Shown: positions 1-32,289 of the stretch, one piece after another | Position numbering within the stretch: the stretch's first letter is position 1 | Layout: the number at the start of each line of letters is the position of its first letter | Source: Lingula anatina | Lineage: Eukaryota > Animalia > Brachiopoda | Length of the DNA: 64,000 nucleotides | Reading direction: 5' to 3' | NCBI GenBank assembly: GCA_051362555.1 | Contig: CM120641.1 | Coordinates: 22,568,001-22,632,000 of the forward strand | Made by a program: the position numbers and the translations under genes | Notes under the pieces: generated by a model | What the model saw: the letters and a program-made list of their open reading frames with translations, nothing else | Database searches by the model: none | Told to the model about the DNA's origin: nothing

Positions 1-13546
<13,546 letters not shown>

Positions 13547-13599
13547 CTTCTATTTGTAAAATTCCGTTTAGGTGTGCAGCGTGTCGTCACTTTCCATTT

Positions 13600-13660
13600 T
13601 TGTATTATTGCTCACATGACCAAAACAAGCGACTGGCTAGCGGCCGCCATATTTACGCCC
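13600..13660 (-). promoter_or_regulatory. Myosin V proximal promoter / 5' UTR motifs
   Basis: CpG-richer patch 60-110 bp upstream of the ATG, with a YY1-like GCCGCCATATT (~13643-13653) and a TCACATGA E-box (~13612-13619). Motif match only. Confidence 0.45.
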
Positions 13661-13871: not shown

Positions 13872-15987
13872 CTCGACGTTTTATGTGCACTTTGTGTATC
13901 AAATATATGTAACACCAATGATAGTTCAAATAGTTCAAACTACATGCATTTCTAAAAAAATCTCAACAGTTTCTCAAAGTGCTGTTATCTGAAAGGCAAT
14001 GGCTTGTAAATGAAAAATTAAATAGCTTGGAAAAAATGTTTGAATCTGTTTTGATTAATTTAAAAGTAATAATTAATGAACAAGCTGAACTAGTACTCAA
14101 ACATGCAAAAAGGATACCTTTCATAATCATTAAATTTTTTTAAAGCAATTTCATTAAAAAAGAATCAGAAAAAATAATTCCCTATGAAAATATACCATAT
14201 TTCTTTTTATTTCATTTCACATATTTCCTTTCTGAAAAAGTGACATTTTTTTAAATCTGTACACCACCTCTCAATGAAAATGACTGCAGTTCACTGTACT
14301 TTAAACCTTCATCATTTTTTCAAAGTTTTTACAGCCATGCTAACATTTCAATATGCAATATGAAGTTTAAAGGGGTATACTTAATTTTCTTCTAAATATA
14401 AATGGTGTAGTAATTATGAATCCTATAACTATGGGAAATTAATTGCACTATCAAATTTTTTATGCCTTTTGGCACAGTATTGCATCTTCTGTCAGAACCA
14501 AATGGCTGAAAGATGGTTGCCAAATTATCATGAGATACTTGCAAATGTCTGCGGAAGAACTATTCTGTGACCTCACACAAACTTAAAATGAGGCCTTTAA
14601 TTGATAATTCAAACATGTAGATACTTAAAAAACATTTTAGCTTAGATACAAACATGTTCTTAATAATATTTCTATAAGGGCAGATTACATTTGTTCTAAA
14701 AAATGGATTCTGTTAATTGTAACAATTATTAAAATAATCAATTACTTAAGTAGTTCACAAAAATTAATTAGTATATTCCCTTGCTTCTTTTAATTTTTTG
14801 CAAAAACAAAATACTTGTTCAGTAAGGAAAGTTATCTAACACATGTACATGGCAAGCCTCACTTTTTCTAATTAAAAGTTAACACTAAAAAAAGATACAC
14901 AAAATCATTCTATAAATTTACAAATCTATTTAAATCACAACAAATTATAACTTTATAAAACAGTATTTTTACAGGACATTTATCCAAATTCAACTGCTGT
15001 GGTGAAAAATATACTGAATGCAGCTATCACAAGCAGCACATACGACACATGTACCACACTTCTCCTACTGAGAGTACAGTAAACTGCTTCAGGCAGTGTA
15101 CGTGTTTCATATCTATCATTTTGATAAATATTATGACTTAAAGAGTATACACCCTTCTTTCAAACATCTACCTAATGAACTCTTTTTATCAAAACCACAA
15201 AAGCCACAAATCACTATATCCACCGCGCTGAAAACAGACATGGTCACTTTCACTTTTGCTTTCAGCATTAATGATTTTATCCTATAGATGGCGAAAAAGT
15301 GCATGCATATGTTTCCGAAAAAGTGTTCATAATATTTGTGTCATATGCAATACAAAGAGCTCAAGAAGAGACCAAGAAATTTATAAAGAATAAGAATATG
15401 TGAAACTTTTCAGTGTTCATGTCCTCTTCTATTGCTCATATTCATAGAGACCGGGTACTGGAGTAGCTTTTCTTGAAGTATGTTAAATGCCGCTTCCTTC
15501 TTCCTTTTCCCGTCTCTACGTAAACAGGTACATCAAGACTTCTAAATTATTTTATTGGGTTTGTGTAAATGTATACTGTCTCCACTGGTTACTTAGAATG
15601 CAAACAATATAGTGACGCCATACGTAAACAATTTACTGGTATAAAAGCGTAGACACATTATACTTAACTAAGTACATTACTGTAACCGGTAGTGCTTAAA
15701 AAGTTTTTTTATCTGTACTACATGGCACACGTAGAAATTATTGTACATGTAATACATGTAACATCGTACAGCATTGCCTTAATTTTGCATTCTTCTGCAA
15801 TCTAAATTGCCTGATGTGGTAAATTACAGACTAAGGGATTCGTATTTTAATATGGACATTCGGACCTGGCTTTAATTGTTAACTTTAACTGACTGTAAGT
15901 ACATGTACATGTAATATGATTAAATCAAGCAATATTGGCTCTGCTTATATATATTTATAGGGTTGATATTCAGTGTTTAAGTTGAAG

Positions 15988-18900
15988 ATGGATGACACAG
16001 AAACTGACACTCCTCCCAGCAGAGGAGGATTCGTAGATTTAGGGAAAGATAAAAGGTAATTGATCGAAATTATTTGTGCTGTAATAAAAATTAATGTATA
16101 TACTCAGTACTATATAAGTACTAGTACTAGTAGCACAAACTATCATGTCCTGGATCTATGAGGCCTCATGCACTGATTTAATGTTATGGATGACATCCTG
16201 TTGAGAACCAAAAACTAACACTAGAGGACCAAAAAAAATCCTGTTAAATTGAAGGAGAACACAGCTGGAACCACGTGCCAGACACAGTGTATCAAACAAG
16301 CAACACATCTCTTAACACAAACATCTTCACATGTTAATTATTCTAGATGATTTTTAAAAGGATAAAATTACTGGTCCGAGAACCAAGGGGGTCATCTGGT
16401 CCTCTGCTACCGAGTCTAGCCAATTTAATCGAAGTGACACATGCACACAACCTGTAGGTGTAATTTATTATTTGATTACAAGCCAAGAGAGAATACACAT
16501 TAATGATAGTATACTCCTTTAGTTCCAATTGAATCAGATTTGATATTTAGTTCTTGTATGATATTTTTGCTACTTTAGTGATAATATTAGATTATTTGTT
16601 TTTATCTTAGGCCAGACAAACAGGTGGCTCATGTAAGAGCAGGTCCAGAGAATGAATATCCAATGGACTATAGATACATGGGAAAAGCAATCATATTCAA
16701 CATCATGGAGTTTAAAGGCAGTGACATTAAAAGGTACAATGAGACAAAATTAGTCTAAGTTTAGATTTCATTTGGTTGCCATTAGTCCTTTTTTTTTTTG
16801 CTTCATTTTAATTGTTTATTTTTTGAATATTAATACCCAAAGATGAGAGCGCATATCATTTTCAGCTCTTAAAGAAATTCAGAGTAAGATTAACAGGAGC
16901 AGATCCAGAAATATTGTCTGACAGTCTTCCAAATAATCTTCCTTGATCCATCCATTTTTGACTGTCCTCTGACAAAAAAAAATTAGATACCTGTCAATGT
17001 AATCTTGAAAATCTGACCCGTCTTCCTTAGGATATCTGTAGGATAAAGTGGTTGAGTTTTCATGGATTCAAACTTTTTGTTATTATAAGATGAAAAACAA
17101 ACATTCAATTCTTATGAATCTGCCATTGATGTAAATAACCTTCTCCTATTGGTAAACTTTGTCATAGACCACTTAATAATTGATTTAAATCTCTTAATAA
17201 TTGTCAGTTTGAAAGGGGTTTTTTTTATAGATACTGGTACATTTTTTAATTGAAGACAATATTTTGTAGCATGTTCATGAATAGGACTTTTTTAAGTTAA
17301 AGTAGCCTTCCTACTTATACCAGTAGAATTTTCAAGTAGGTGTGGACATTTATCATTTACATACCCTAACGAAAAAGTCCTGTAGAACCCTATAAGATCC
17401 TATAGGAAATTGGGCCAATTTCCTATAGAATCCTATAGGATCTTATAGGATCCTATAAGACTTAATATATGTTTAATTTCAGGAAAGATGTGGATGCTGC
17501 AAAATTATATGGAAAATTGGAAGATCTAAAGTTTCAGGTGTCGCTAAAAAACAATTTTTCAGCTGAGGAGATAAAAGATTGTCTTGCAAGAGGTACATGT
17601 ATGACAGGTTTAATGATAAATGCTAAAATAAAAATCATTATAATGATTTATATTTAAGATTGCAATCCAGAGGGTTGAGGTTGTATATGAAATTTAAAGA
17701 GCATTGCAATCATAATGAAATGCTTCATGTTTGAATGAAACTACCCATTAGTTAAAAGACTGCTTCTGGAGCTTCATAACTACTGACCATGAAATACAAT
17801 AATGCATTTTACTATGTGAAATTTAAAAAAAACATATGGAATAATGGAGGAATGAAATCTTTATGTATTGGAATTTGGCACATAATATCTCATTTTCTGT
17901 TGTTTGGTCTTAAAAATGATTGGATTGCTAAAAAAATTGATTTAAGTTCAGTTTGTCTGAGGGTTCATTTATTTTGTAAAAGAAAGTTTTGCACAGATCT
18001 TCTCTTATTTTATCTAAAGTTCTTATAAGCATATTTGACTGGGTCAGAGCTAAACCATAATGTAAATTGGGGAAGTTATCCTCAGTGCACAACTTTGGAC
18101 ACAATTGAAGAGTATACGTTGCTCTACGCAATAGTCCGTGTACCACACTTGGCAGGCATATTCTAGAATTGAGTGCACAGTTCTTTGGTAAATTCGGAGT
18201 TCTGAGCTTGTCTCATTTCAGTTGATGGAAAAAAGTCTTGCAAATGCTTTTTTTATACATGTATGATCCGCATGAGTACCACATTTCAGATCATTGCTTA
18301 TATAGGTGCCAAGAAGCTTGAGTTCAGATTGGGATATTATGTGTTACTATTGGTGGGAGGTCTGGCATAGAGTGTGTAAAATTTTGAGTCAAGCTTTTTG
18401 ATTTTTGTGGCATTAAACTTGATGTCATTGTTCTCTGTCCTCTGCATGATTTTGTTAGATGCACTCTGCAGTTAATCTGCATGGACCCTTGATGTTTCAT
18501 AAGAAATATATGTCTTGTTATGTTAAATCACTGCCAAAATATTTTTGTAAATAATGTAAAAAACATTGTTTAATTTTAGTTGCTAAGGAAAATCACCAAG
18601 ATATGGCATGTTTTATGTGTATCATATTGACCCGTGGGAGGGAAGGTCTCATCCTTGGTAAAGATCGGTCTATCCCAGTGGAAGAGTTGCTTCAACCTTT
18701 CAAAGGAAACAAATGTCCCTCCTTGGCTGGAAAACCCAAGATTTTCCTCATTCAGGTATGTACATTACAGATTGATGATCATCTGTTTTATTCAAGTTAA
18801 AGATCCATTTAAAGTCGAATTTCTGCCACAAATCCCAAACTTCAAAGGAAATCAATGTCCATATTTAGTTGGAATTTTTTCTCTAATCAGGTAATGTGCA

Positions 18901-20807
18901 ATATGTTACAGATTGGTGGGCAACTGTTTTATTCAAATTCAAGATGCATTTTAAGTCAAATTTCTGCTGCAAAACAGGACCAAAAACCACTAATACCAAT
19001 GGACATTGTTTTATATTTCCAGAAAAATTATATTTGAACGTACATTTTCTATTTTTTTCTATGCTATAAATATCCCACAGCAGTTTCATTTGAATAAGTA
19101 TACAGTCCCATGCGCAACTATATGTCAATACATGGGAGTGAGAGTGATGAATATGAAATGTGCTCGCTGTAGTACATAATTAAGCAGATAATGAACTGGA
19201 GGGACAGATAAATAGGTCAATTTACAACCAAAAATTTGAAGAAATTTCAGTTTTCAATTTTTTAGCTAAATGAGAGCTTAATTTGGTTTATGACTTGGCA
19301 TGTCAACTTTATTTTAGTCTAAATAAGAAACTTGCAAGTATGGTTTTTATACCTTATTGGGAGTCCACGCTTGCTTAATATTTATCTTTAAGTGCTTCCT
19401 ACTCATTTTGATACAATATTATGTTATTTAGACCGCATTCTCAACGAATTGAGCCAGGCTTTACAAATCCTGAGAACAAAAAATGGCGGACGTACATGAA
19501 AGAAAAACCGCCTAATCTTTTAATAGTCTCTCCGCCTCTCACACGCCTCCCCACATGTCGTCCCTGCGGGGTACAGTAATTAAATCTCGGCTCCGAACAT
19601 GAATATCTCCGTGAATATCTCTGGTGATATTATCTCCGTAGATAGTCGATTCATTGCTGCTCTACGGGCCAATTCATTCCTTTTTCATCTCTGTTTTGAA
19701 AGATAATAGAACAGAAGAGCTTTTTTCCTTCGCTCGCCTTTAGCCGCCATGCTTTCTTCACCACGAGTTTAACTGATGAGCATGCGCAGTTAATATTTCT
19801 CAGGTAGCTTCCGCATGGCGAACGGAGCCGAGATTTAATTACTGTACCCCGCAGGGACGACGTGTGGGGAGGCGTGTGAGAGGCGGAGAGACTATAAAAA
19901 GATTAGGCGGTTTTTCTTTCATGTACGTCTGCCATTTTTAGTTCTCAGGATTTGTAAAGCCTGGCTCAATTCGTTGAGAATGCGGCCTTAGAGACTTACA
20001 ATAGGCATTTGAAAATGTTCTTAGGTATTCATGTATTACATAACACTGAGTCTTGAAGAGTTAAATTTCCATTTAAATTATTTTGACATAAATAATATCA
20101 ACACTGAAATGTAATTTTTTTTTTTCATTTTCCCAGGCAGATCAGGATATTACATTTGAAAAAGAAAGTGCAGATTTTTTTCCACTAGGAACAAAATATA
20201 AACCTGAAGAGACAAAGAAATACCGTATTCCAGCAGAGGCCGATTTTTTGGTAGCCACCTCTGTGATTCCAGGTACACTTATAAGTTCTTCCAGCTTAAT
20301 GTTTTGTAAATATCAAAATTATATGTAATATTTATAGTATAAATGTTGTTCCTTCAAAACAAATAGACATTTTGCAGGGGAAATAATCATTCTTTATCCC
20401 CAGTAGAAAATTTCATTTATTTCATAAAAATGAAGTTATCATCATAATACAAGTTTTTTCTCTTGTCTAACAAGATATTTTATCATTAGATCATTATTTC
20501 TGTCAATTTATTAGGAAAATGGTCATGGGACATAACTATGCCTACAGCAAGTCATTTCAAAAAATACAAAAATGCCTCTTGTTTCATACATCATCTTTGT
20601 GAGATGCTTGAAAAGGAAAGCGAGCAGGAGGAGGAGAGTGAGAGGTTGGACCTTTTAACCCTGTTAATGCGTGTATCCCAACTGGCGACTTGTGATGTCC
20701 AGCAGGCTCTTGGGGACACCCATAAAGCTCTCTTTGAGGAATATGATTTAATACCATGTGTCACTTCAACACTGACCAAGGACATTATATTTCCTATCAG
20801 TGATTAG
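15988..20807 (+). CDS. Caspase-3/7-like pseudo-caspase, ~301 aa, catalytic His and Cys both replaced
   Basis: Exons 15988-16055, 16611-16733, 17483-17592, 18580-18755, 20137-20272 and 20515-20807 join in one frame (906 nt). Caspase motifs: YPMDYRYMGKAIIFN, CFMCIILTRG (normally SHG), FKGNKCPSLAGKPKIFLIQ|ADQD (normally QACRG), RIPAEADFLVA, IPCVTSTLTKDIIF. Confidence 0.85.
18030..18470 (-). mobile_element. Decayed CR1/L2-group LINE fragment (RT C-terminal region)
   Basis: Minus strand reads, with frameshifts and stops, KLLGTYISNDLK..H, TVHSILEYACQVW, VQSCALR..PNLHYGLAL, resembling the CR1/L2 consensus RSVLEYACPVW..QKRALRII. Confidence 0.7.
19431..19987. mobile_element. PIF/Harbinger-type MITE with 165-bp TIRs, in pseudo-caspase intron 4
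   Basis: Arms 19431-19595 and 19823-19987 are near-perfect reverse complements; TTA direct repeat at 19428-19430 and 19988-19990; termini G(A/G)CCGC. Confidence 0.85.
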
Positions 20808-21949
20808 ATCACTTATTGACAATTAAGACATCAGAACACAAAGAATATGTTTTCTCAAAATAAAATCAATATTGACTTATAATAAAAAATGACAGACAAA
20901 ACTCATTATGATTTTTCTATGGAGGCAAACTGATTTTATTTTCTCTTAAAGCATCTGTCCCATACATATATAACTGGCATCATACTTTTAAAATCATGAA
21001 AATATATCATTACATTTCTTAGCATCCATCTCTGCTTTGTCTATAGTATCCCTTCACAAACAGGAATTGCACATTACAGTCGAAACTCCTCCTCTGCAAC
21101 TCCACATGCCTTGAATTCTTTGAATTTTGATAATATTGTTATTATGCAGTGGGCTAGTTTACTTAAGCATTAATTACCAAATACTTTAATTAAATTAAAA
21201 AAAACTATAATTATACAGCTGTTATATATAATAATTCAGATAACAATACCCACATTTCCTAGAAAAAAATGGTTCTGTAAGTGTTTTTCCATACAAACCC
21301 TGTTCTCTTTTAAACAGTTAATTATTCTCTTCTGGAAGTTGTGGAAAACTAGAAATGGGATGCCACAAAATACATGCCTATTTTTTTCTACCATGAAAAT
21401 CATATATTTTGTATAAAAAATAATTGCTAATTGCAATGTACAGTCTAGCAATTATAAGGAGTTACAGTGATATGATGTTGAAATTATTATTTTTAGTATT
21501 TTTTTTTGTCTAGTTGTACATTTACAAGGACATTAAGTGTTTTCTGTGCAAAATATAGTACATTAATAAAAGCTACTAAATTTATGCCTTTTGCATAATA
21601 CATAAAAAAGCTTCAATCAAATATTTTAACCAGTGAGACAAAAAATTTAATGTCTCCTATATTAATTTTAGACCCTGTCAAAACAGCCTTACGTGAATTT
21701 TAGAACTGGTGAAGAATCTTGCAAGCATATCAGTTGACAAATATATTTTGTATTCCGCTTTATGCAATAAATTTGTACAAAACCCTATAGTGTGTGTTGT
21801 GGTCTTCCTACTGATCTTATACACATTGTATGCCATGGTATGCTCTAATTTTTTTTTTTTTTTTTTGGTATATAAATGATAACCACCAAATCCAAGAGAG
21901 GGTCAAGTGGTACATTTACCACTATTTTGTCCTGCTGCAAACTGTTAAA

Positions 21950-24879
21950 TTAATGCCAAATTGTCTTTGGTCGAAAGTATACTTCTTTATGTAATTTTGA
22001 GACAACACTGCACACTGACTTCTTTCCACTCAAATGTTCTTTATTTGGATTGTAAGATTCATATTCTGTAGCCATGACGTGGGCAGTACGTGTAAGCATG
22101 TGCTGGAATCCCATTGTGGTGCCATACTTCTCTATCACGCTGCATAAACTTTGAATAAACCAAGAGCCTTTCTTCTTTCTAAAAGCAAAAAAGCCTGAAA
22201 TTTAAATATACAGTACACGTGTTAATGGTACATATACAAAGCAAGATACATTGTATGTTAAAATAATTCAAACTGTAAGTTGGTTGCTGGAAAACAGCTC
22301 CATGTTTAAAAGAAAAAAGACAAAAGCAATTTATTATGCTGTGCTGCCTTTCAGAGCAAACATTTCAATTTTTAGACAGGCTGGTACATTAAGACCTGTA
22401 CAGAGTGTACTAGTATGCAGGCACTTGCATATTGAATAAATGTTCTAGGAGTACTTATCACATAGGGGGCATTCCCATAGATTTTAGATCTATCTATCCC
22501 AGTGGGGAGTCTCACTAGATTACTGTCCGATAATCAGGCTTTAATGTCTGTCCCGCCTACTACAAGCTGTTGGGGGGTAATTAACTGTCGTGCACGATCG
22601 GCTGACAGCTATTTAGCGTTAACCCCCAAGGAGTTAGGTCTATCTAGTTGGATCGATCTAATCTCTGGGAATGGGGTCATAGATCAAAATTTGCAGTTAG
22701 GACAGGCTCGGGTAATAACCACATCAAAGACATTACCTGGAGGAGTTCCATATACAGTTATGAAATTATTAAAGATAGGTATGTCTCTCTGTATTGCAGG
22801 ATTGCTCATGTCAGCATCATCAGGAACATCAATGGTACCAGCTGGTGCATCACACACATCATAATCCTGGTCACAAATCTCTTCAATCTCAACTCCATCA
22901 TCTAGTTTATAACCACGGCAAGCCTGCAGGACAAAACAGTATGGGTCATTTTTTTTTAAACCAAATCACTACTGTTACAAACCCATATTTACATGCTTTT
23001 GAGATAATTAAGGGCTCACTCCCAATGACACTATCATTCTACATAGTTCAATCCAACTCTGCGGGAACTATAGCTGAATTAAATCAGTTTAAAGCAATAA
23101 TAACTCTTTGTTTTGGCCAAAAAATGAATTTTCCTGGAGTAAACATCAATTTTCCCATACTTACCAATGGTTAATGAATCCATTTTTACATTCAAAGATA
23201 GTCCCTGTTTTTTTTCTAAAAAGTTTGGTTTTTTGTTAAAATCTCTTAAGAGATTTTAACAGAGTATAGACATCAATGGAGGTCACGTGGTCTAAAGACA
23301 AGTTCAGATATCAGAATAATAGTTATAACTGCTGTTTTTGTGGTAAAACAGAATATATTATATTTCTATGAGTTATTCACAAGGTTTTTATTGTGAAATA
23401 TAGATCTCATACGAAGAGTTATTATCCCTTTAACTGATTAACACGCCTCCTTTTATTTCCAACATACTCGTACAATCACCAGCTTTACTGTATTCTACTC
23501 GACACCAGAAAGAAGAGTGTTAATCTCTTCATCTAATTGCTGTTCACCAACAAGAGTCCCCGTAGAGTATATATATACATCTATGTAAAATGGGAATGAG
23601 CCTTTAGACTCTTCGACGCAGTTAAGTATGCTTAACTATAGAGGTGCACTGTGAGAGATAGATAACTGAATGCTCTCTAAGTGTACTATTCAATGTAAAA
23701 GGGCGCCTTAAGCAGAGAGAATGGAATTGCAGTCTTTTTAAAAATTGGACTATGTATTTTTATAATTCATTCATTTTTTTTGTCACTGTTTTGTGGGAAG
23801 GGGGGGTTGTTTGGTATGCCTAACAAATGAAGGTTTCAGCTATTACATGCTAACATTGAGCTTTGAATAGGGAAAATGAGCATTGACAATGGTATAATTT
23901 ACCTGCAAGAGAAATATTTTTGGTTTTCCCCTCAAGGTGGGGCACTTGTTGTCTCTAAAAAGTTCCAAAAGCAGCTTGATATGGATGGGCCTATTGTCTG
24001 TTCCATACACCATTCCATGCATTGAAACAATGCTATCACCACTGGCATCCGCAATAGGGGGACCCTGTAGCTCACCCCCATGACTGAATATGGCACAAGC
24101 AAAGCAATCTGAGTCTAAGTGATTCTCCCTGGATGCTAAATAAATAAATTCTTGATGAAAATTAGTCTGCACTTTTATAGAAATGGTTATGATTCTCTTT
24201 CAGTTTTCAAACAACAATACTAAATATCCCACCACAACAAAAAAAAAAGCAATTCTTTGTAGGTAAATTAAGTTAAGTTAAGGCTGAAGTTAAATTAAAG
24301 ATATGATAAAGTATTATTACTCTTACCACTTTTCTACCCCTGCACCAAAGAGCAAAAACAAAAAGTTCCAGAATTATTTCCATTTTTAAAAGCATTAATT
24401 GCTTACCTTTGAACAAAGTGTGATACATAGCAGATGCAGTCAAATTTCGAAGGACTCTAATGTCTTTGAAGCCCAATGTTTTAAATGCCTGGTATAGCGA
24501 CTTTTCATCTCTTCTGGATCCTACAATTGAAAATAACAATATATAATTATATATTATATTCTCTCAGTGAAACACAATAAAATGATATAACTTACTACAT
24601 AATAAACTTTCCATATAATAACTTTATAATAAACAACAATATCCAAGATTTTGCATTTGAAATCAAATTTTTGCTACAAAACCAACAATTAAGTGCCACT
24701 TTAAAGTTTAAAATTATATAACTTAGAGAAATGACATCATTTCATATTTTCCCAGAAATGATCCCTTGTTTACCATCTCTATTTTTTTCTGCATCATTTT
24801 CAAAAGTCTCATTATTGATGATAATTGCTACACCACGTGATTTGTTGCTGAAGTCATATTCCCAGTTTGTTTGGTCCAT
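21950..24879 (-). CDS. Caspase-3/7-like cysteine protease, ~294 aa, predicted active, essentially no prodomain
   Basis: Exons 24774-24879, 24407-24520, 23903-24135, 22737-22923 and 21950-22194 join in frame (885 nt). Motifs YDFSNKSRGVAIIINN, RDGS, CFACAIFSHG, KCPTLRGKPKIFLLQ|ACRG, GFFAFRKKKGSWFIQSLC. In-frame TGA upstream of ATG 24879; probable non-coding exon with donor at ~24974. Confidence 0.88.
22470..22673. mobile_element. Small MITE-like insertion in a caspase intron
   Basis: Imperfect TIRs CATTCCCATAGATTTTAGATC / GATCTAATCTCTGGGAATG; GGG on both flanks may be a TSD. Confidence 0.5.
23012..23603. mobile_element. Non-autonomous Kolobok-like element (592 bp)
   Basis: TTAA+GGGCTCACTCCCA at left; TGGGAATGAGCCT+TTAG at right (11/13 TIR match). 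Shares a ~50-bp subterminal block (23121-23170) with the element at 48845. Confidence 0.6.
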
Positions 24880-25192: not shown

Positions 25193-25841
25193 TGTAAAGG
25201 TCTTCGTTTTTCTGCCACCAGTGTACGGTTCTCTTACTTCGCTGCCACCAACAAAACAAGGTCGCTGTTTTGTAAACTTTATTTCTACGAATAACTCTCA
25301 ACACAAATGTACATGTTTCTGTATCTTTTACTAAACACTGTCTCTATTCTTGCTGTACTGCTGTACTTCTAATTTAAACAACTGCAACTCAGCTACAATA
25401 AACTAACTGGAACTATATTGTGAAACTGACTCAAACTAAGTTGTGAAACTAAGTCTGACACTATACTCTCACTGAGTACTGCCACTATACTCTACAGTAA
25501 CTCTAACTGAGTACCGCCACTATACTCTACAGTAACTCTAACTGAACTCTAACTGGCCAACACTGCGTAGAGCAGCTGTATTTATAGGTTTCAAAAGTGG
25601 ACGACCTTGAATGGTTCACTGCTACTCTGACTGGCAGCCAGAGGAAAAGTGGACGGCCTTGAATGGTTGACCGCCAACCCCTCTACTGGACACCACAATC
25701 CCCTCTTTAGTAAACTGATACCACTTACAAGCCATTCCAACTTAAGGTTCAAAGTTCAACACACACAAGAATGTAAACAAAAGGCTAAAGCTTACTGCGG
25801 CAATTTTACCATGAATTTTAAGGCTATGTAAAATCGTTACA
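25193..25841 (-). repeat. 3' LTR of the Gypsy element
   Basis: By eye identical to 31641-32289 except at three sites (25197, 25204, 25207). Minus-strand TATAAATA (~25579-25586), AATAAA (~25278-25283) and an internal 35-bp tandem duplication. Confidence 0.97.
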
Positions 25842-25853
25842 CTCTCCCCCCCT
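25842..25853 (-). other. Polypurine tract
   Basis: AGGGGGGGAGAG on the minus strand, directly before the 3' LTR. Confidence 0.9.
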
Positions 25854-26123
25854 AGGTCTGATCCCACCGGGGATCTGCCCAACTACTAAATCAGTTAAAA
25901 CTAAAAATATTCTGAAACATTTAAGCAGTTAAAAATTCAGTCAGTTCATAAAGTTCATTCAATAGTTCAGTGTCACTTTGATTAAATAAAATTACTCTTA
26001 AGTTCAACATTGGGTTAATAATGATAATCATTTAAAGTTCATAGTCTGATTCATAATAATGTTCACTTTAAAGTTCAAAGTCTGATTAATAATAATGTTC
26101 ATTTTAAAAGTTCATTGTCACAG

Positions 26124-29100
26124 TCAATCAGCAAATCTCTTGGGAGGTCTTCTTTTCCTTTGTGGTCTTCCCTCATTTCTCAAATCACTGTCGGGTTGGT
26201 TCTTGGGTACTTGCACTTGTTTAGATTGACCACTCTGCTTCATCCTGTGTTTGATGGCACTTCCCTCATGTTTCAGTGGACTGCCTTCTACATAATTACC
26301 TTTATGTACACATTTCTGCAAACTTGACACCCAATCTGGAACTTGGTCACTTAAAAATGGCTTAGGACGGTCATGGTGCACGATCTTCATTTTACACTTA
26401 GGCTTGCCTTTCACTGCAAACAACAAATCACTGTGCTTTTTGACAACAACAAAAGGTCCTTGCCATTTATCACGTTTCAGCTTTGGGCTCAGTCCCACTG
26501 TTCTAGTGCTATCTAGTAAGAACACCAAGTCACCAACTTTATAGTTATTTTGCGAAATACGGGTGTCATGGTCTCTTTTCTGCCTTTGATAGTCCTTTTT
26601 CAAATGCAATCTCACTATTTCATGAATTCTAGTCATTTTCTCTTGCAACAATTTGACATACTCTGAAGGAGACGTCACAGATCGGTCTTCTGGTGGTTTT
26701 CCAAAGATCAGTTCTGTAGCTGTGTGAACTTCTCTGCCTAACATAAGCAAATTAGGGGAATAACCAGTGCTTTCATGTTTACAGCACCTGTATGCTGCAG
26801 TCAATAAAGGCAAATGAATGTCCCAATCCCGTTGGTCTTCTGACACGTAAGCTGATATCATGTCACATAACACAATATTGAATCTCTCCACCATTCCATT
26901 TCCTGAGGGATGATAGCTGGATGTTCGGGTTTTATTTATTTCTAATACTTGACATACTTGTTTGAATAACTGTGACTCATAGTTGCTACCTTGGTCTGAA
27001 TGGAGATCAAGGGGTAGGCCAAATCTAGAGAAAAACTCTGTCACTAGCTTGTGTGCTACAGTTTTAGCTGATATGTCAGGGATGGCATAGCACTCCACCC
27101 ATTTGGAAAACTGGTCCATTGCTAATAGAATATATTTATTGCCTCTTTCACTGACTGGAAAAGGTCCTAAGATGTCTGTTGCCACTCTGTCCATGGGAGC
27201 GCCTACAGCATATCTTAGCAAAGGAGCCTTGGGTCTTGACCGTGGTCTTTTTCTCCCACCACAAATAGCACATCTTCTTATGTAATCTCTCACACTTTCT
27301 TTCATCTTGTACCAGTAGAAGTGTCTTTTCAACTTGCTCACTGTTTTCTTGACACCGAGGTGACCCGACGTGACTTTGTCATGTACGCCCTTCATCACCT
27401 CATTCCTCATCTCTTTCGGAACCAATATCTGTAAAAAGGAACCTGTCTTATCTAACGTTTCCCATCTCTTATATAAAATGCCCTCCTGCAGCACAAGTTG
27501 GTCCCAAAGCAACCATAACTGTCGTACTGCAGGACTTTCTGCGGCCACTTTATCTCTCTCTGGTCTCTGTGATGACTGTTCCTTCCAGTCCAGCACAGTC
27601 TTCAACTCAGGGTCTTTACACTGCAAATTAAACAATTCATTCACAGTGTAACTGCCCAGCCACTCGGCTGGAAGTCTATCTCTGTCACTCTCAGATTCAC
27701 TGAGATCTGTATCTTCATCACCATGAGAAAAATCTTGATCCTTGAATGTCAAGTTTTCTCTAGGCAGCACTTCCCTTTTCTTGGAAACTCTCATCCTTCG
27801 AAGAGAAAGTGCTCTAACTTCCTTAAAGATACACTTGAATTTCATGGTCACCCAGCTCAGGATTACAAAGAACAATGTCAGTAGGGTGTAAAGGCCTGTC
27901 AATAAAACTGAACAAGCTGCTGTATACACACATTTTACTGGACATTTTCCTTGGTTTCCCGATACTTGACCACTGCCACAGACTCCATTGTCTGATTTTG
28001 GTTCTTTCTTTCGGTTTTCTGTCATTCTTCTGGTTACTAAAGGGACAACGTCTTCTTCCAGATATCTGGACCATTGTTCATGTTTCTTTTTACACTGTAC
28101 GCAACCCTCGCATGGCAAATTGCTTAAAATGGACTCTCCATCATAGCATGGACACTCATCTGGGTCGCATGGAAATCTCGATATTGCATCTGCGTTACCG
28201 TGTCTAGCCCCTGCTCGGTGTTCTATTTTAAAATCATACTGTGATAACACTTCCAGCCATCTGGCCATCTGATCATTGGGCTCCTTAAAGGACATAACCC
28301 ATCGGAGGGCACTGTGATCGCTTCGTACCAAAAACTGTCTACCCAATAAATGGTGTCTAAATTGTTGAACAAAGGTAACAACGGCAAGCAGTTCTTTTCT
28401 AGTCACGCAGTAACGGCGTTGAGTTTTCGTCAATGACTTACTTGCATACGCGACTGGTTTCTCTATTTCTTTCTGGGTCTTCTCACACCACTGTAACTGA
28501 GATAAAACGGCACCAATGCCCGTGGCTGAAGCATCAGTGTCGAGAATATACAATCCTTCGTCTCTCGGATACGCCATTACCTCATTACCTGTAAGGGCAC
28601 TTTTGAGGTCCTCAAATGCTGTCTGACAAGAGTCCGTCCAAGTAAACGCCTGGCCGGCCTGGAGCAGGTAATTAATTGGAGCAGCTCTTGTTGAAAATCC
28701 TCTAATAAATCTACGATAATATGAGCACAGTCCTAGAAAACTACGTACATCAGTCAGATTCCTGGGAACTGGCCATTTCTTTATACACTCTACCTTCTCA
28801 GGATCTGGTTTAACGCCATCTTGTGTCACTACATGTCCCAAAAACTGAACTTCAGTCTGGAACAACCTGCATTTGCTTGGCTTCAGTTTTAGCCCTGCTT
28901 TTCCAAGACGATTAAAAACCTCGTCAAGTCTCTTATAGTGTTCTTCAAACGATTTACCAAACACAATAATGTCATCAAGGTAAATCAACACTGTCTGCCA
29001 CTGCAAACCACGTAAAATCAGTTCCATACACCGTTCGAAGGTTGAAGGAGAATTAGAAAGACCAAAAGGCATAACATTATATTCGTATAACCCATTTCTG

Positions 29101-30452
29101 GTCACAAATGCAGTCTTTGGCTTATCTTCTTCTGCTACCTCGATTTGATAATACCCGCTCTGGCAATCAGCTATTGAAAAGAAAATTGAGCCACCAAGAG
29201 AGTCTAAACAGTCATTTATTCGAGGAAGAGGGTAAGCATCTTTAACTGTTACATCATTTAAGCGTCTATAGTCAACACAGGGTCTTGTTGTTCCATCCTT
29301 TTTCTTGACATAAACTAGTGGAGATGACCAAGGTGAGGTGGACTCTCTAATAACACCATTTTGGAGCTGTTCCTGAATTATTTTCTCTTCTTCTCCAGCA
29401 AACGCTCTAGGGGGTCTTCTGGGCTGCTGTTTTATGGGTCTTGCATCACCAGTGACGATCTTATGCTTCACGACAGATGTGTGACCCATGTCACTGGAAG
29501 ACTTGGCAAAAACATCACTGTGCTTCTGCAGGAGTTTCTTTAATTCACATCTTTCAAAGTCAGTCAAATTCTCACCTGACTGTTTATAGAGGTCAGCCAG
29601 GTACTCAGGCAATTCTGGGCTATGAAGGGTTAAGTCTGACTTTTGTTTACCAGGGGTTAAGTCTGCTCGTAAGATGGGCACAGAAAGGCTATCTTCAAGT
29701 TTATCACCAATCACATGGTCTACTTCATGTAAATGAGCAGCGCAGGTGTCTTTCAAAAGTGAAATGTCTTCATTAGAGGGGTTAAGGAGTCTCAAAGGTA
29801 TTTTATTGTCTCTTCTGAAAGGATCAACTAGCACATGTCCGATCAGAAAATCACTTGACTTCTCTGGAATTGCCTCTACCAGTCCGAATCCTGATTTTAT
29901 TTTGCTAGAATTGACTGTCCCTTCTATGATCAACTCACTGTTTGCAGGAATAATAACGTCATTAGTCACTGTCACTCTTAAGGCATGCTTTGGTTCCCTC
30001 TCAACCAAACAGGGCACTCTCTTCCCATTAAGTTTCAGTCCGTTCACACCCAGTGAAAAATCATGATGGCACAGGAAGTCCATTCCTAACAAACCATCGT
30101 CCTTTATTTTTGCTACAAGCATGTCCCATACAAACATTTCTTCACCAGACTGAAATCTTATTTCTACATGGCCTTCAATTTCAATGTTTCTACTGTCTGC
30201 AACCTGCAACTGCAATTTTCTATGAGTCTTTTTCAGTTCAGGTCTAAAATCATGGGGAATTCGTTCATAAATGTGGGTAGATATAATTGTTTTTGACGCA
30301 CCAGTGTCTACAATAAAGTTCACTTCTTGGCCCTGAATCTTCACTGGCCAAGAAACACTAGCATTTCTACAACTAACGGTTTCAATGTCACTGTCAACAG
30401 GTGTTTTTAGGGGTTCATTCTGGCCGGCTGGAATGCCCCTTCTCAGTTTCCC
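26124..30452 (-). CDS. pol: Gypsy Pol (protease, RT, RNase H, integrase), reached by -1 frameshift from gag
   Basis: Supplied 1456-aa ORF: protease FIVDTGAS, RT MPFGL..YLDD, RNase H DTDAS, integrase zinc finger HDKVTSGHLG..CAIC, catalytic DILGP / HSDQG / GMVERFN. Confidence 0.97.
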   Translation of the reverse strand, partial: GKLRRGIPAGQNEPLKTPVDSDIETVSCRNASVSWPVKIQGQEVNFIVDTGASKTIISTHIYERIPHDFRPELKKTHRKLQLQVADSRNIEIEGHVEIRFQSGEEMFVWDMLVAKIKDDGLLGMDFLCHHDFSLGVNGLKLNGKRVPCLVEREPKHALRVTVTNDVIIPANSELIIEGTVNSSKIKSGFGLVEAIPEKSSDFLIGHVLVDPFRRDNKIPLRLLNPSNEDISLLKDTCAAHLHEVDHVIGDKLEDSLSVPILRADLTPGKQKSDLTLHSPELPEYLADLYKQSGENLTDFERCELKKLLQKHSDVFAKSSSDMGHTSVVKHKIVTGDARPIKQQPRRPPRAFAGEEEKIIQEQLQNGVIRESTSPWSSPLVYVKKKDGTTRPCVDYRRLNDVTVKDAYPLPRINDCLDSLGGSIFFSIADCQSGYYQIEVAEEDKPKTAFVTRNGLYEYNVMPFGLSNSPSTFERCMELILRGLQWQTVLIYLDDIIVFGKSFEEHYKRLDEVFNRLGKAGLKLKPSKCRLFQTEVQFLGHVVTQDGVKPDPEKVECIKKWPVPRNLTDVRSFLGLCSYYRRFIRGFSTRAAPINYLLQAGQAFTWTDSCQTAFEDLKSALTGNEVMAYPRDEGLYILDTDASATGIGAVLSQLQWCEKTQKEIEKPVAYASKSLTKTQRRYCVTRKELLAVVTFVQQFRHHLLGRQFLVRSDHSALRWVMSFKEPNDQMARWLEVLSQYDFKIEHRAGARHGNADAISRFPCDPDECPCYDGESILSNLPCEGCVQCKKKHEQWSRYLEEDVVPLVTRRMTENRKKEPKSDNGVCGSGQVSGNQGKCPVKCVYTAACSVLLTGLYTLLTLFFVILSWVTMKFKCIFKEVRALSLRRMRVSKKREVLPRENLTFKDQDFSHGDEDTDLSESESDRDRLPAEWLGSYTVNELFNLQCKDPELKTVLDWKEQSSQRPERDKVAAESPAVRQLWLLWDQLVLQEGILYKRWETLDKTGSFLQILVPKEMRNEVMKGVHDKVTSGHLGVKKTVSKLKRHFYWYKMKESVRDYIRRCAICGGRKRPRSRPKAPLLRYAVGAPMDRVATDILGPFPVSERGNKYILLAMDQFSKWVECYAIPDISAKTVAHKLVTEFFSRFGLPLDLHSDQGSNYESQLFKQVCQVLEINKTRTSSYHPSGNGMVERFNIVLCDMISAYVSEDQRDWDIHLPLLTAAYRCCKHESTGYSPNLLMLGREVHTATELIFGKPPEDRSVTSPSEYVKLLQEKMTRIHEIVRLHLKKDYQRQKRDHDTRISQNNYKVGDLVFLLDSTRTVGLSPKLKRDKWQGPFVVVKKHSDLLFAVKGKPKCKMKIVHHDRPKPFLSDQVPDWVSSLQKCVHKGNYVEGSPLKHEGSAIKHRMKQSGQSKQVQVPKNQPDSDLRNEGRPQRKRRPPKRFAD

Positions 30453-31570
30453 TGGTTGTTTACATGCGGAGCCTCTTTCACAGGTGCCTTGCATTCTCTT
30501 GCCAGATGCCCATATCTATGGCACTTGAAACACTCTATGTTGTTTTTCCAATTTTCTGACTTGGGTGGTGGAGGACTTTTCTTGTCTTTTGCTTTCTCTT
30601 TCATTATCAAGTCTTTAATTTCATCTAACTTCTTGTCAAACTTCTTTTCAAGCTGGTGTAGCTGACTTTCTGTTACAACAGCCTCAGGATTTGCTGCCCT
30701 AACACTTGGTCTTTTCACTGCCTCTTCTCTTAGACTGTTATACATTTCAAGGGCCTCCCTTGCTTCGTCTAGATTTTTGGGCGTTTTCATGCCCACTGCC
30801 ACGGCGGCTTGATGGTCTGGCAACCCTTTTATGAAGTGGCGCAATGCAATGGTCTCACGTGTGGTGCAGTCAGCCGTCGGGTAACCTTTTAACACTAACT
30901 TTCTAATATCGGAGATGTACTCTGGCAGTTTCTCTCTTGAACTAAGCTTTCTATTCTCTAGCTCTGATAGATAAGAGCTTGTAGTACGCTTTTCTTGAAA
31001 TCGGTTTTGCAATGCCCTCTGTAGCAGAGGGTAGGAATTTACCACTTCTGCTGACAACTGCACAAAGGCGAAATCAGCAGCCTCACCACGCAGACTGTTA
31101 CATAATCTAAACAGTTTCTCAGACTCACTCCATTCACAAGTCTGGCTTAGTGCTTTGAATGGCTCAATGAAACCCTCCCAGGATTCTTTTCCACTAAAGA
31201 GAGTCTGTCTGGGCAAAGGTATTTCAAAGTTACTACGGCCGTTAATTCTGTGAAATGGGGTAAGTGTAGGGGTTATTGTTTCTGATATGGGTTCATTCTG
31301 GGCTCTGTGTTCTATTTCTGTCTCTTTCTGTCGCTCTAGGGCTCTGACTCTCTGTTCTGCAGCCTCAGCACGTGCCTCTAAGATGTCCGCATTTTCTTTT
31401 GCTTTTCTAATTAATCTTTCTTTCTCTGCCTCTGCTTCTTCTACAGCATTTTGTATTCTGTGAGTAGAATTTTCTTTTTCAGCTTCAAGAGCTCTGCAGG
31501 CTTCTTCTAACTGTTCCTCCAGGTTTCTCACTTCCTCCTGGTCAGATCTGTTGTCCTTTTTAGGAGGCAT
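30443..31570 (-). CDS. gag: Gypsy Gag, 375 aa
   Basis: N-terminal coiled coil, capsid-like FSGKESWEGF..W..LRGEA..F, C-terminal zinc knuckle CFKCHRYGHLAREC. Confidence 0.95.
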   Translation of the reverse strand: MPPKKDNRSDQEEVRNLEEQLEEACRALEAEKENSTHRIQNAVEEAEAEKERLIRKAKENADILEARAEAAEQRVRALERQKETEIEHRAQNEPISETITPTLTPFHRINGRSNFEIPLPRQTLFSGKESWEGFIEPFKALSQTCEWSESEKLFRLCNSLRGEAADFAFVQLSAEVVNSYPLLQRALQNRFQEKRTTSSYLSELENRKLSSREKLPEYISDIRKLVLKGYPTADCTTRETIALRHFIKGLPDHQAAVAVGMKTPKNLDEAREALEMYNSLREEAVKRPSVRAANPEAVVTESQLHQLEKKFDKKLDEIKDLIMKEKAKDKKSPPPPKSENWKNNIECFKCHRYGHLARECKAPVKEAPHVNNQGN

Positions 31571-31620
31571 TTTGAATTTCTTGATTTCTTGAGCTTTTCT
31601 CTTGGCGTGTTAAAGTCTGT

Positions 31621-31639
31621 ATCCCAGCGCTTGCCACCA
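31621..31639 (-). other. Primer binding site, tRNA-Leu-like
   Basis: TGGTGGCAAGCGCTGGGAT, 1 nt after the 5' LTR; close to the complement of the animal tRNA-Leu(AAG/TAG) 3' end TGGTGGCAGCGGTGGGAT as I recall it. Confidence 0.8.
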
Positions 31640-31640
31640 G

Positions 31641-32289
31641 TGTAGAGGTCTCCGCTTTTCTGCCACCAGTGTACGGTTCTCTTACTTCGCTGCCACCAAC
31701 AAAACAAGGTCGCTGTTTTGTAAACTTTATTTCTACGAATAACTCTCAACACAAATGTACATGTTTCTGTATCTTTTACTAAACACTGTCTCTATTCTTG
31801 CTGTACTGCTGTACTTCTAATTTAAACAACTGCAACTCAGCTACAATAAACTAACTGGAACTATATTGTGAAACTGACTCAAACTAAGTTGTGAAACTAA
31901 GTCTGACACTATACTCTCACTGAGTACTGCCACTATACTCTACAGTAACTCTAACTGAGTACCGCCACTATACTCTACAGTAACTCTAACTGAACTCTAA
32001 CTGGCCAACACTGCGTAGAGCAGCTGTATTTATAGGTTTCAAAAGTGGACGACCTTGAATGGTTCACTGCTACTCTGACTGGCAGCCAGAGGAAAAGTGG
32101 ACGGCCTTGAATGGTTGACCGCCAACCCCTCTACTGGACACCACAATCCCCTCTTTAGTAAACTGATACCACTTACAAGCCATTCCAACTTAAGGTTCAA
32201 AGTTCAACACACACAAGAATGTAAACAAAAGGCTAAAGCTTACTGCGGCAATTTTACCATGAATTTTAAGGCTATGTAAAATCGTTACA
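31641..32289 (-). repeat. 5' LTR of the Gypsy element
   Basis: Direct repeat of 25193-25841; adjacent to the PBS and the gag start. Confidence 0.97.

What the first reader, a model, noticed from the sequence alone, without database searches (positions are those of the whole stretch)
15988..24879. Tail-to-tail decoy/active caspase pair: intact effector-type pseudo-caspase facing an active paralog
Seen: the + gene has six clean exons and an unbroken ~301-aa frame, yet catalytic His is Arg (ILTRG), catalytic Cys is Asp (IQADQD), and the small-subunit S1 Arg is gone (SWDI instead of SWRN). The - gene, whose stop is 1.14 kb away, keeps SHG, QACRG and both S1 arginines. The two share three intron positions and phases (before xxENH, at Q|A, at P-G). 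Established: dead caspase paralogs regulate active ones (cFLIP/caspase-8, which also has His->Arg; C. elegans CSP-2/CSP-3; Aedes CASPS18/CASPS19). Inference: a DED-less, effector-type decoy plus partner module. Wholesale loss of the active site with fold and frame preserved suggests selection for a non-catalytic role, and the N-terminal DTETD could be a caspase cleavage site.
Basis: partly seen in the sequence, partly recalled or inferred. Interest (0 to 1): 0.82.

Follow-up and report, generated by a model that had tools for sequence, protein, structure and literature searches.

The report
Expressed dead caspase-3/7 in a brachiopod
A lamp-shell (Lingula) gene makes an intact, expressed copy of a cell-death protease that has lost its cutting residues but kept its predicted fold and pairing surface, so it likely regulates working caspases; whether the neighbouring caspase is its partner is untested.

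Summary
Observation confirmed. The + gene (database match: Lingula anatina XP_013411650) is an intact 301-aa caspase-3/7-type protein with His→Arg119 and Cys→Asp161. RNA reads show the 18755→20137 junction in 8 of 8 runs (148 reads), and no exon restores QACRG. Listed coding variants (13 silent, 12 replacement; pN/pS about 0.24–0.34, P≈0.001) point to purifying selection. Of 64 conserved positions it keeps 44, including the core and the dimer strand; the 20 losses include the dyad and the substrate-binding residues. It keeps two likely caspase sites, TETD7 and linker ESAD172. So 'selected pseudo-caspase' is supported.

The 'decoy plus neighbour module' is not shown. The two proteins are 29% identical, and trees neither support nor reject sisterhood. 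A heterodimer model passes (0.80 vs best control 0.19), but caspase dimers are textbook pairs. Both genes are expressed, and their 3′ UTRs overlap by about 0.9 kb.

Dead executioner caspases recur: 17 of 144 relatives lack His or Cys, and oyster and mosquito cases are published. Verdict: a new, unremarked member of a known kind.

The parts
15500..15527 (+). 3′ end of a non-coding 5′-UTR exon of the pseudo-caspase (true 5′ end not mapped); spliced to an acceptor at 15961
   Evidence: GT..AG joint 15525→15959 (cut +2) in 3 of 4 runs, 26 reads; boundaries read
15961..16055 (+). Pseudo-caspase exon with ATG at 15988; N-peptide with TETD7
16611..16733 (+). Pseudo-caspase coding exon 2 (start of large subunit; ends in the remodelled R-x-G-T region)
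17483..17592 (+). Pseudo-caspase coding exon 3
18580..18755 (+). Pseudo-caspase coding exon 4; catalytic His position is Arg119 (CGT, 18633–18635)
20137..20272 (+). Pseudo-caspase coding exon 5; catalytic Cys position is Asp161 (GAT, 20140–20142); linker ESAD172; L2′ segment YRIPAEADF kept
   Evidence: junction 18755→20137 in 8 of 8 runs
20515..20807 (+). Pseudo-caspase coding exon 6; small subunit without the S1 Arg, with an insertion after SW; canonical dimer strand IPCVTSTLTK; stop TAG
20920..21790 (.). Approximate overlap of the two convergent 3′ UTRs (AATAAA at 21565 and 21766 on +, at 20940 on −)
   Evidence: stranded reads of both orientations over 20796–21788 in X1 and X4, and over both flanks of a deletion in X5; signal scan
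21950..22194 (-). Neighbouring caspase, last exon (S1 Arg219; divergent dimer strand SVCSVVSKLHK; stop TAA)
22737..22923 (-). Neighbouring caspase exon 4 (ACRG; acidic linker with several Asp)
23903..24135 (-). Neighbouring caspase exon 3 (SHG followed by an 18-residue insertion)
24407..24520 (-). Neighbouring caspase exon 2
24774..24879 (-). Neighbouring caspase first coding exon (ATG 24879; almost no pro-peptide; S1 Arg34)

Best explanation
The + gene is an expressed, intact caspase-3/7 duplicate that has lost its catalytic and substrate-binding residues and likely works as a non-catalytic dimer partner that damps or gates active executioner caspases, probably its own caspase-3/7 paralogs elsewhere in the genome more than the neighbour. 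Shown: expression, splicing, residue losses, excess of silent variants. Predicted: caspase fold and a usable dimer strand. Inferred from how caspase-3/7 dimers work (established knowledge): while its linker is uncut it would hold a partner in a zymogen-like, low-activity dimer; once cut at ESAD172 (and TETD7) it would lend its kept L2′ loop to the partner's loop bundle, giving a dimer with one active site, as cFLIP-L does with caspase-8. The net effect would be a raised threshold for executioner activation.
For: Open frame and all junctions in 8 of 8 runs. 13 silent vs 12 replacement variants, 5.8 silent expected under the same mutation spectrum, P=0.0013, pN/pS 0.24–0.34. Frame intact despite an end branch of about 1.55 changes per column. 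Keeps 44 of 64 conserved positions, including A194-D195-F196, P285, S289, L291, T292; the 20 losses include R and G of R-x-G-T, His, Cys, Gly, small-subunit Arg, and G-W of GSW; the median active relative loses 5. AlphaFold2 model: pLDDT 81.3, pTM 0.79, best matches caspase-3/7. Aligns to human caspase-7 from residue 5, with TETD7 and ESAD172 at or next to its two processing Asp (the caspase-7 site assignment is recalled). Best named relatives are active mollusc caspase-3/7, 35–40%. By eye, the active Lingula caspase XP_013408948 shares the N-terminal words MDDTE and EYPM (paper supplement). Its dimer strand matches the canonical IPC(V/I)TS(M)LTK of these relatives. Precedent: FLIP(L), CASPS18.
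Against: No binding or activity data exist. The Lingula caspase-3/7 paralogs could not be put into a tree or a complex model; that comparison is by eye only. Trees do not resolve the protein's position. No orthologue outside Lingula was found, so there is no between-species dN/dS or synteny. The variant lists are truncated (675 and 10 rows hidden) and the runs may mix diverged populations. Phe after ESAD is a poor P1′ residue (recalled), and residues 172–190 are unmodelled (pLDDT under 50). The direction of effect is open: CASPS18 enhances its partner.
Confidence: 0.45

Rival explanations
1. The first reader's module: the pseudo-caspase is the dedicated regulator of the adjacent active caspase, and the two are kept together and co-regulated, perhaps through their overlapping 3′ UTRs.
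For: Adjacent, both expressed in 4 of 4 runs, with UTR overlap on both strands. Heterodimer model 0.80 vs best control 0.19, runs agree in at least 69% of contacts, partner pLDDT at least 77, canonical strand-to-strand interface; the mark was reached by 51 of 78 solved complexes and 2 of 108 mismatches. AU test does not reject sisterhood (p=0.61). No other caspase gene in the 64-kb window.
Against: Caspase dimers are solved many times over, so the pass may be from memory and does not tell which family member binds. Identity is only 29%. The neighbour has replaced ADF with NNF and has a divergent dimer strand. By eye it shares its SHG-loop insertion and linker features with annelid and Aplysia caspases and with another Lingula caspase, which points to an old, separate lineage. 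It groups with P0133 (91/93), and the two window genes as an exclusive pair are not among the ten commonest placements in 1000 bootstraps. No synteny data.
Confidence: 0.22
2. It is kept for binding something other than a caspase: an IAP, a caspase substrate or a scaffold, acting as a sink or a sacrificial substrate.
For: Selection and fold are shown, but the partner is not. It has a private insertion of about 10 residues at the substrate-binding loop and an acidic insertion in the small subunit. Pseudoenzymes can have roles apart from their parent (review passage).
Against: The substrate groove is the most eroded part, against a substrate trap. The N-termini that cleavage would expose (FFPL, TPPS) do not start with the Ala or Ser of IAP-binding motifs (recalled).
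Confidence: 0.18
3. It is a slowly decaying duplicate with little or no function; the constraint is weak and only keeps a still-translated protein from misfolding.
For: 12 of 25 listed coding variants change a residue. Long branch. No orthologue found outside Lingula. Lingula has 24 listed caspases, 3 of them without the catalytic His by eye, so duplicates turn over.
Against: Significant excess of silent variants. No stop or frameshift among the listed variants in 8 runs; the one listed exonic indel is an in-frame 6-nt insertion. Steady spliced expression, as high as or higher than the active neighbour by junction counts. Losses include the active site while the core is kept.
Confidence: 0.13
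4. It still cuts peptides by an unusual chemistry.
For: Fold and Gln159 are kept.
Against: Both dyad residues and the small-subunit S1 arginine are replaced, the large-subunit Arg motif is broken, and no Cys lies at the active-site loop.
Confidence: 0.02

Closest known systems
Dipteran caspase-like decoys, e.g. Aedes aegypti CASPS18 with CASPS19 (Bryant et al. 2010, seen only through passages in PMC4840389 and PMC3141678)
   Same: Enzymatically inactive effector-type caspase that arose by gene duplication, has no DED/CARD, and is co-expressed with an active paralog.
   Different: CASPS18 is reported to enhance its own close paralog. Here the neighbour is a distant paralog (29%) and no effect is shown. 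Both dyad residues and the S1 pocket are gone here.
Vertebrate cFLIP(L) (PMC7586951, passages)
   Same: His→Arg and loss of the catalytic Cys in a whole caspase fold; a cleavable inter-subunit linker; a dimer surface kept.
   Different: cFLIP is a caspase-8/10 paralog recruited through two DEDs, with Cys→Tyr. This protein has no DED, is of caspase-3/7 type and has Cys→Asp. Independent origin.
Degenerate mollusc executioner caspases: oyster Cg3A (His→Tyr) and Cg3B-like (loss of RG) (PMC7836458, passages); database proteins of Haliotis, Bulinus, Tegillarca and Dreissena with His→Tyr
   Same: Caspase-3/7-type duplicates in spiralians with a broken dyad; several also lack the small-subunit Arg.
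   Different: Most keep the Cys and have Tyr for His. No supported clade joins them to the Lingula protein, so these are probably separate losses. The paper leaves their function open.
Active spiralian caspase-3/7 (oyster CgCaspase-1/Cg3B, DEVDase shown in PMC3923871, passages) and human caspase-7
   Same: Closest sequence relatives; N-peptide with SETD/TETD, linker Asp, IPAEADF and dimer strand all alignable.
   Different: These have His, Cys and both S1 arginines.
C. elegans CSP-2 and CSP-3 (PMC3591282, passages)
   Same: Caspase homologues reported to inhibit an active caspase.
   Different: CSP-3 lacks an active site and is a small-subunit-like protein (recalled); its anti-apoptotic role was not replicated in that paper.

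Membership tests
Caspase family (Peptidase C14, executioner type) | Caspase p20/p10 fold over the full length | tested here: met
   Pfam PF00656 E=9.5e-42; model pLDDT 81.3, Foldseek top hits caspase-3/7
Caspase family (Peptidase C14, executioner type) | Short pro-peptide, no CARD or DED | tested here: met
   Only PF00656 is found; about 36 residues precede the domain
Active caspase-3/7 | His–Cys catalytic dyad | tested here: not met
   R119 and D161; no variant listed at these codons (lists truncated)
Active caspase-3/7 | S1 pocket arginines in both subunits | tested here: not met
   Small-subunit Arg absent under either alignment; R-x-G-T motif shortened by 1–3 residues, with K63/R64/K65 nearby
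Pseudo-caspase (pseudoenzyme) | Intact, expressed gene without catalytic residues | tested here: met
Pseudo-caspase (pseudoenzyme) | Kept by purifying selection | tested here: met
   Within-species pN/pS 0.24–0.34, P=0.0013 on 25 listed variants; between-species test not possible
Pseudo-caspase (pseudoenzyme) | No measurable protease activity | not testable with these tools
   Needs an enzyme assay
Caspase-like decoy (CASPS18 / cFLIP-L type) | Binds an active caspase | tested here: inconclusive
   Model with the neighbour 0.80 vs best control 0.19, but a textbook dimer; other Lingula paralogs not modelled
Caspase-like decoy (CASPS18 / cFLIP-L type) | Changes the activity or processing of that caspase | not testable with these tools
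   Needs co-expression assays
Caspase-like decoy (CASPS18 / cFLIP-L type) | Partner is the paralog from which it duplicated, here the neighbour | tested here: inconclusive
   Careful tree does not pair them; AU p=0.61; motifs by eye favour other Lingula caspases as closest kin
cFLIP orthologue | Tandem DEDs and caspase-8/10 ancestry | tested here: not met
   No DED; nearest relatives caspase-3/7

The most novel reading that the evidence does not exclude
[quoted passage not shown] The Lingula gene is the most complete case, with both dyad residues and the S1 pocket lost, and is coupled to a distant active caspase through overlapping antisense 3′ UTRs.
Probability: 0.17. Interest if true: 0.7.

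Novelty: new member of a known kind. Interest (0 to 1): 0.4.

Why it matters
Databases and a 2024 survey list this gene as an ordinary caspase-3, so counts of executioner caspases in spiralians are inflated by dead copies. If it regulates executioners by heterodimerising, it gives a clean, DED-free test of whether a cleavable dead protomer can gate caspase-3/7, in a lineage that lacks APAF-1 and caspase-2. The recurrence of such copies in molluscs suggests a common, unstudied control layer. The concept itself (decoy caspases) is already established.

Tried and rejected
Alternative exon restoring QACRG: no ACR or CRG word in any frame of intron 4; the only acceptor-like AG|GCN TGY lies in a transposon and does not read ACRG; no other joint from donor 18755 in the untruncated joint table. 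Rejected.
Assembly error: an independent database protein differs at only 3 of 301 residues and has the same R119 and D161. Rejected.
Ancient pseudo-caspase orthogroup shared with molluscs: a FastTree clade of five dead proteins (0.97) lay next to the Lingula protein with low support (0.38), and broke up under the mixture model except for one pair. P0065 (unnamed) shares QAD and SCFI with it, but pairs with P0073 (96/92). Not supported.
Orthologue search: exon-6 query, 1 hit among 147 candidates, itself; full protein, 39 hits among 794 candidates; representatives, best 150 of 3739 hits listed, none above 44% identity. These libraries hold few brachiopods, so this is weak.
Sisterhood of the two genes: FastTree separates them; the 42-row quick tree leaves both in one open group of 19; AU p=0.61 with the constrained tree 5.4 log units better than that quick tree; the careful tree does not pair them, with its bootstrap not fully settled. 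Unresolved. The trees used 144, 42 and 26 hand-picked rows out of about 200 stored proteins.
No whole genome was held, so synteny and a genome-wide caspase census could not be run. No indexed RNA holder was listed; the runs came by species label.
Atlas searches returned only generic caspase clusters. Earlier scan notes: none near this place, none on animal pseudo-caspases among the 8 shown.
Literature: searches found no paper describing this Lingula protein as inactive. PMC11463336 lists both genes in its supplement without a note, and its main text has 0 hits for 'inactive', 'pseudo' and 'QACRG'. Bryant et al. 2010 is not held. Figures were not visible, and subscription journals are largely missing.
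Full report
What is there. The + gene has six coding exons with GT–AG ends and an open 301-aa frame. The − gene has five exons and 294 aa, and the stops lie 1142 nt apart. Exon searches returned the same proteins from a named genome, Lingula anatina (brachiopod): XP_013411650 (3 of 301 residues differ) and XP_013411651–654 (2 of 294 differ), both labelled 'caspase-3'. No other caspase gene lies in the window.

Expression. Eight RNA runs were laid on the locus. All five + junctions appear in all eight. The junction that joins Gln to Ala-Asp (18755→20137) has 41, 9, 8, 16, 39, 24, 9 and 2 reads, 148 in all. Intron 4 holds no sequence that could restore ACRG, and no other joint from that donor is listed. 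A non-coding 5′ exon ends at 15527. The − gene is expressed in the four runs that covered it, at somewhat lower junction counts. Stranded reads show both transcripts over about 20.9–21.8 kb, matching poly(A) signals at 21565 and 21766 on + and 20940 on −. The 3′ UTRs therefore overlap. This is common for convergent genes (own knowledge) and is not evidence of regulation.

What is lost and kept. Against 71 active relatives, 64 columns are at least 80% conserved. The + protein keeps 44 and loses 20; the median active relative loses 5. The losses include the R and G of R-x-G-T, His (R119), Cys (D161), the following Gly, the small-subunit Arg, G and W of GSW, and K-Q before the last strand. The core, A-D-F and the dimer strand P-C-V-T-S-T-L-T-K are kept. 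The model has the caspase fold (pLDDT 81.3, pTM 0.79; linker 172–190 unmodelled), and its best solved matches are caspase-3 and -7. It aligns to human caspase-7 from residue 5 (E 2.6e-37). TETD7 sits at the N-peptide site and ESAD172 at the linker site (the caspase-7 processing sites are recalled). SETD or TETD is also in active oyster and abalone relatives, so the site is inherited.

Selection. The two lays list 25 coding substitutions: 13 silent, 12 replacement. With the same mutation spectrum 5.8 silent would be expected (P=0.0013); pN/pS is 0.24–0.34. None is a stop or touches R119 or D161, and the one listed exonic indel is in frame. Limits: the tables hid 675 and 10 rows, there was no DNA run, and two runs from one study look more diverged than the rest. 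The frame has also survived about 1.55 changes per column. A plain pseudogene is unlikely.

Relation to the neighbour. The proteins are 29% identical. The + protein's best named relatives are active mollusc caspase-3/7 at 35–40%. The neighbour has an 18-residue insertion after SHG, NNF for ADF and a divergent dimer strand. By eye these traits recur in annelid and Aplysia caspases and in Lingula XP_013406381, while the + protein shares its N-terminal words with the active Lingula XP_013408948 (supplement of PMC11463336, parts 13–14). That favours an old split between the two window genes and a parent elsewhere, but those sequences could not be put in a tree. The trees are weak. FastTree separates the two. 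The careful 26-row tree pairs the neighbour with an unnamed protein (91/93) and leaves the + protein unplaced. An AU test does not reject sisterhood (p=0.61). The three shared introns are real, and a fourth is offset by one phase, but they are probably ancestral family introns (recalled; no passage found). A heterodimer model with the neighbour passes: 0.80 against a best control of 0.19, at least 69% contact agreement, partner pLDDT at least 77, the usual strand-to-strand interface; the mark was met by 51 of 78 solved complexes and 2 of 108 mismatches. Caspase dimers are solved many times, so this shows compatibility, not partner choice.

How common. Of 206 stored proteins, 144 were kept (230–500 aa, one domain, near-duplicates of the oyster protein dropped). 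Of these, 17 lack His or Cys: 10 have His→Tyr (three pairs are near-identical), 4 His→Arg, 1 His→Thr, and 2 keep His; 3 lack both. Named ones come from Haliotis, Bulinus, Tegillarca, Dreissena and Limulus, plus one pangolin model that may be mispredicted. One abalone dead copy pairs with an active abalone caspase (86/97), so at least some arose separately. Tyr and Arg are each one base from His, so matching cFLIP's Arg is unsurprising. Lingula itself has 3 of 24 listed caspases without the His, by eye.

Mechanism. Best reading (0.45): a non-catalytic dimer partner of executioner caspases, probably its caspase-3/7 kin. In caspase-3/7 each active site needs the partner's L2′ loop, freed by linker cleavage (established knowledge). 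This protein keeps the linker Asp, the L2′ segment and the dimer strand. Uncut, it would damp a partner; cut, it would support one active site. Binding, cleavage and direction are all inferred. Rivals: dedicated partner of the neighbour (0.22), a non-caspase ligand (0.18), slow decay (0.13), residual catalysis (0.02).

Known systems. FLIP(L) has Arg and Tyr at the dyad and both inhibits and promotes caspase-8 (PMC7586951, passages). Inactive duplicates acting as decoys are described in Diptera, with CASPS18 enhancing CASPS19 (passages in PMC4840389 and PMC3141678; primary paper not held). Oyster executioner caspases with His→Tyr or loss of RG are noted, function open (PMC7836458, passages). 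CSP-2 and CSP-3 were reported as inhibitors, and the CSP-3 result was not replicated (PMC3591282, passages). PMC11463336 (passages and supplement) lists both window genes without remark and reports loss of APAF-1 and caspase-2 in Lingula. PMC11543851 and PMC3923871 were seen as passages only. Seven searches found no description of this protein as inactive.

Verdict. A real, expressed, selected pseudo-caspase-3/7 that seems unremarked; a new member of a known kind. The pairing with the neighbour is possible but not shown. Interest 0.4.

Noticed in passing
window 25193–31940 (− strand ORFs 26124–30515 and 30443–31609): An LTR retrotransposon of Gypsy-like domain order (protease, RT, RNase H, integrase) with open gag and pol frames and a 300-nt flanking direct repeat at 99% identity, so a recent insertion. 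It sits about 300 nt upstream of the active caspase's first coding exon and could affect its expression.
   Followed up: partly
window 19430–19988: MITE-like element in intron 4 of the pseudo-caspase, with 166-nt inverted arms at 97%; multi-copy reads pile up on it.
   Followed up: partly
window 18699–18973: Decayed tandem duplication (about 142 nt spacing) of the end of exon 4 and the start of intron 4, with a second donor-like site near 18890 that no listed joint uses.
   Followed up: partly
window 21078–21503: A 424-nt deletion allele in the overlapping 3′ UTRs, seen in reads of both orientations in runs X4 and X5.
   Followed up: no
window 16004: An in-frame 6-nt insertion allele in the N-peptide next to TETD7 in run X7, 19 of 23 reads.
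   Followed up: no
window about 4600–13650 (− strand): A myosin motor gene lies head-to-head with the pseudo-caspase; one exon reads SGESGAGKT. The myosin-V label is by eye.
   Followed up: partly
window 42899–43231 and 48304–56381 (+ strand): Exons of a PhyH-family dioxygenase and of a type II topoisomerase.
   Followed up: partly
Lingula XP_013395658 and XP_013416458 (supplement of PMC11463336): Two Lingula caspase-Y-type proteins have Tyr for the catalytic His and lack QACRG: possible CARD-bearing pseudo-caspases, not remarked in the passages seen.
   Followed up: no
P0065 (unnamed transcript protein, 283 aa): Another dead caspase-3/7 with His→Tyr, Cys→Asp (QAD) and the same W→C change in SCFI as the Lingula protein; probably convergent.
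   Followed up: partly
P0130 and Alitta c70725: Similar caspases that both lack the catalytic His and the RG after QAC; by eye a possible conserved annelid pseudo-caspase family.
   Followed up: no
P0041–P0060 and others: Many top hits hold two or three caspase domains in one chain, often one intact and one degenerate; some may be merged gene models, some natural decoy–enzyme fusions.
   Followed up: no
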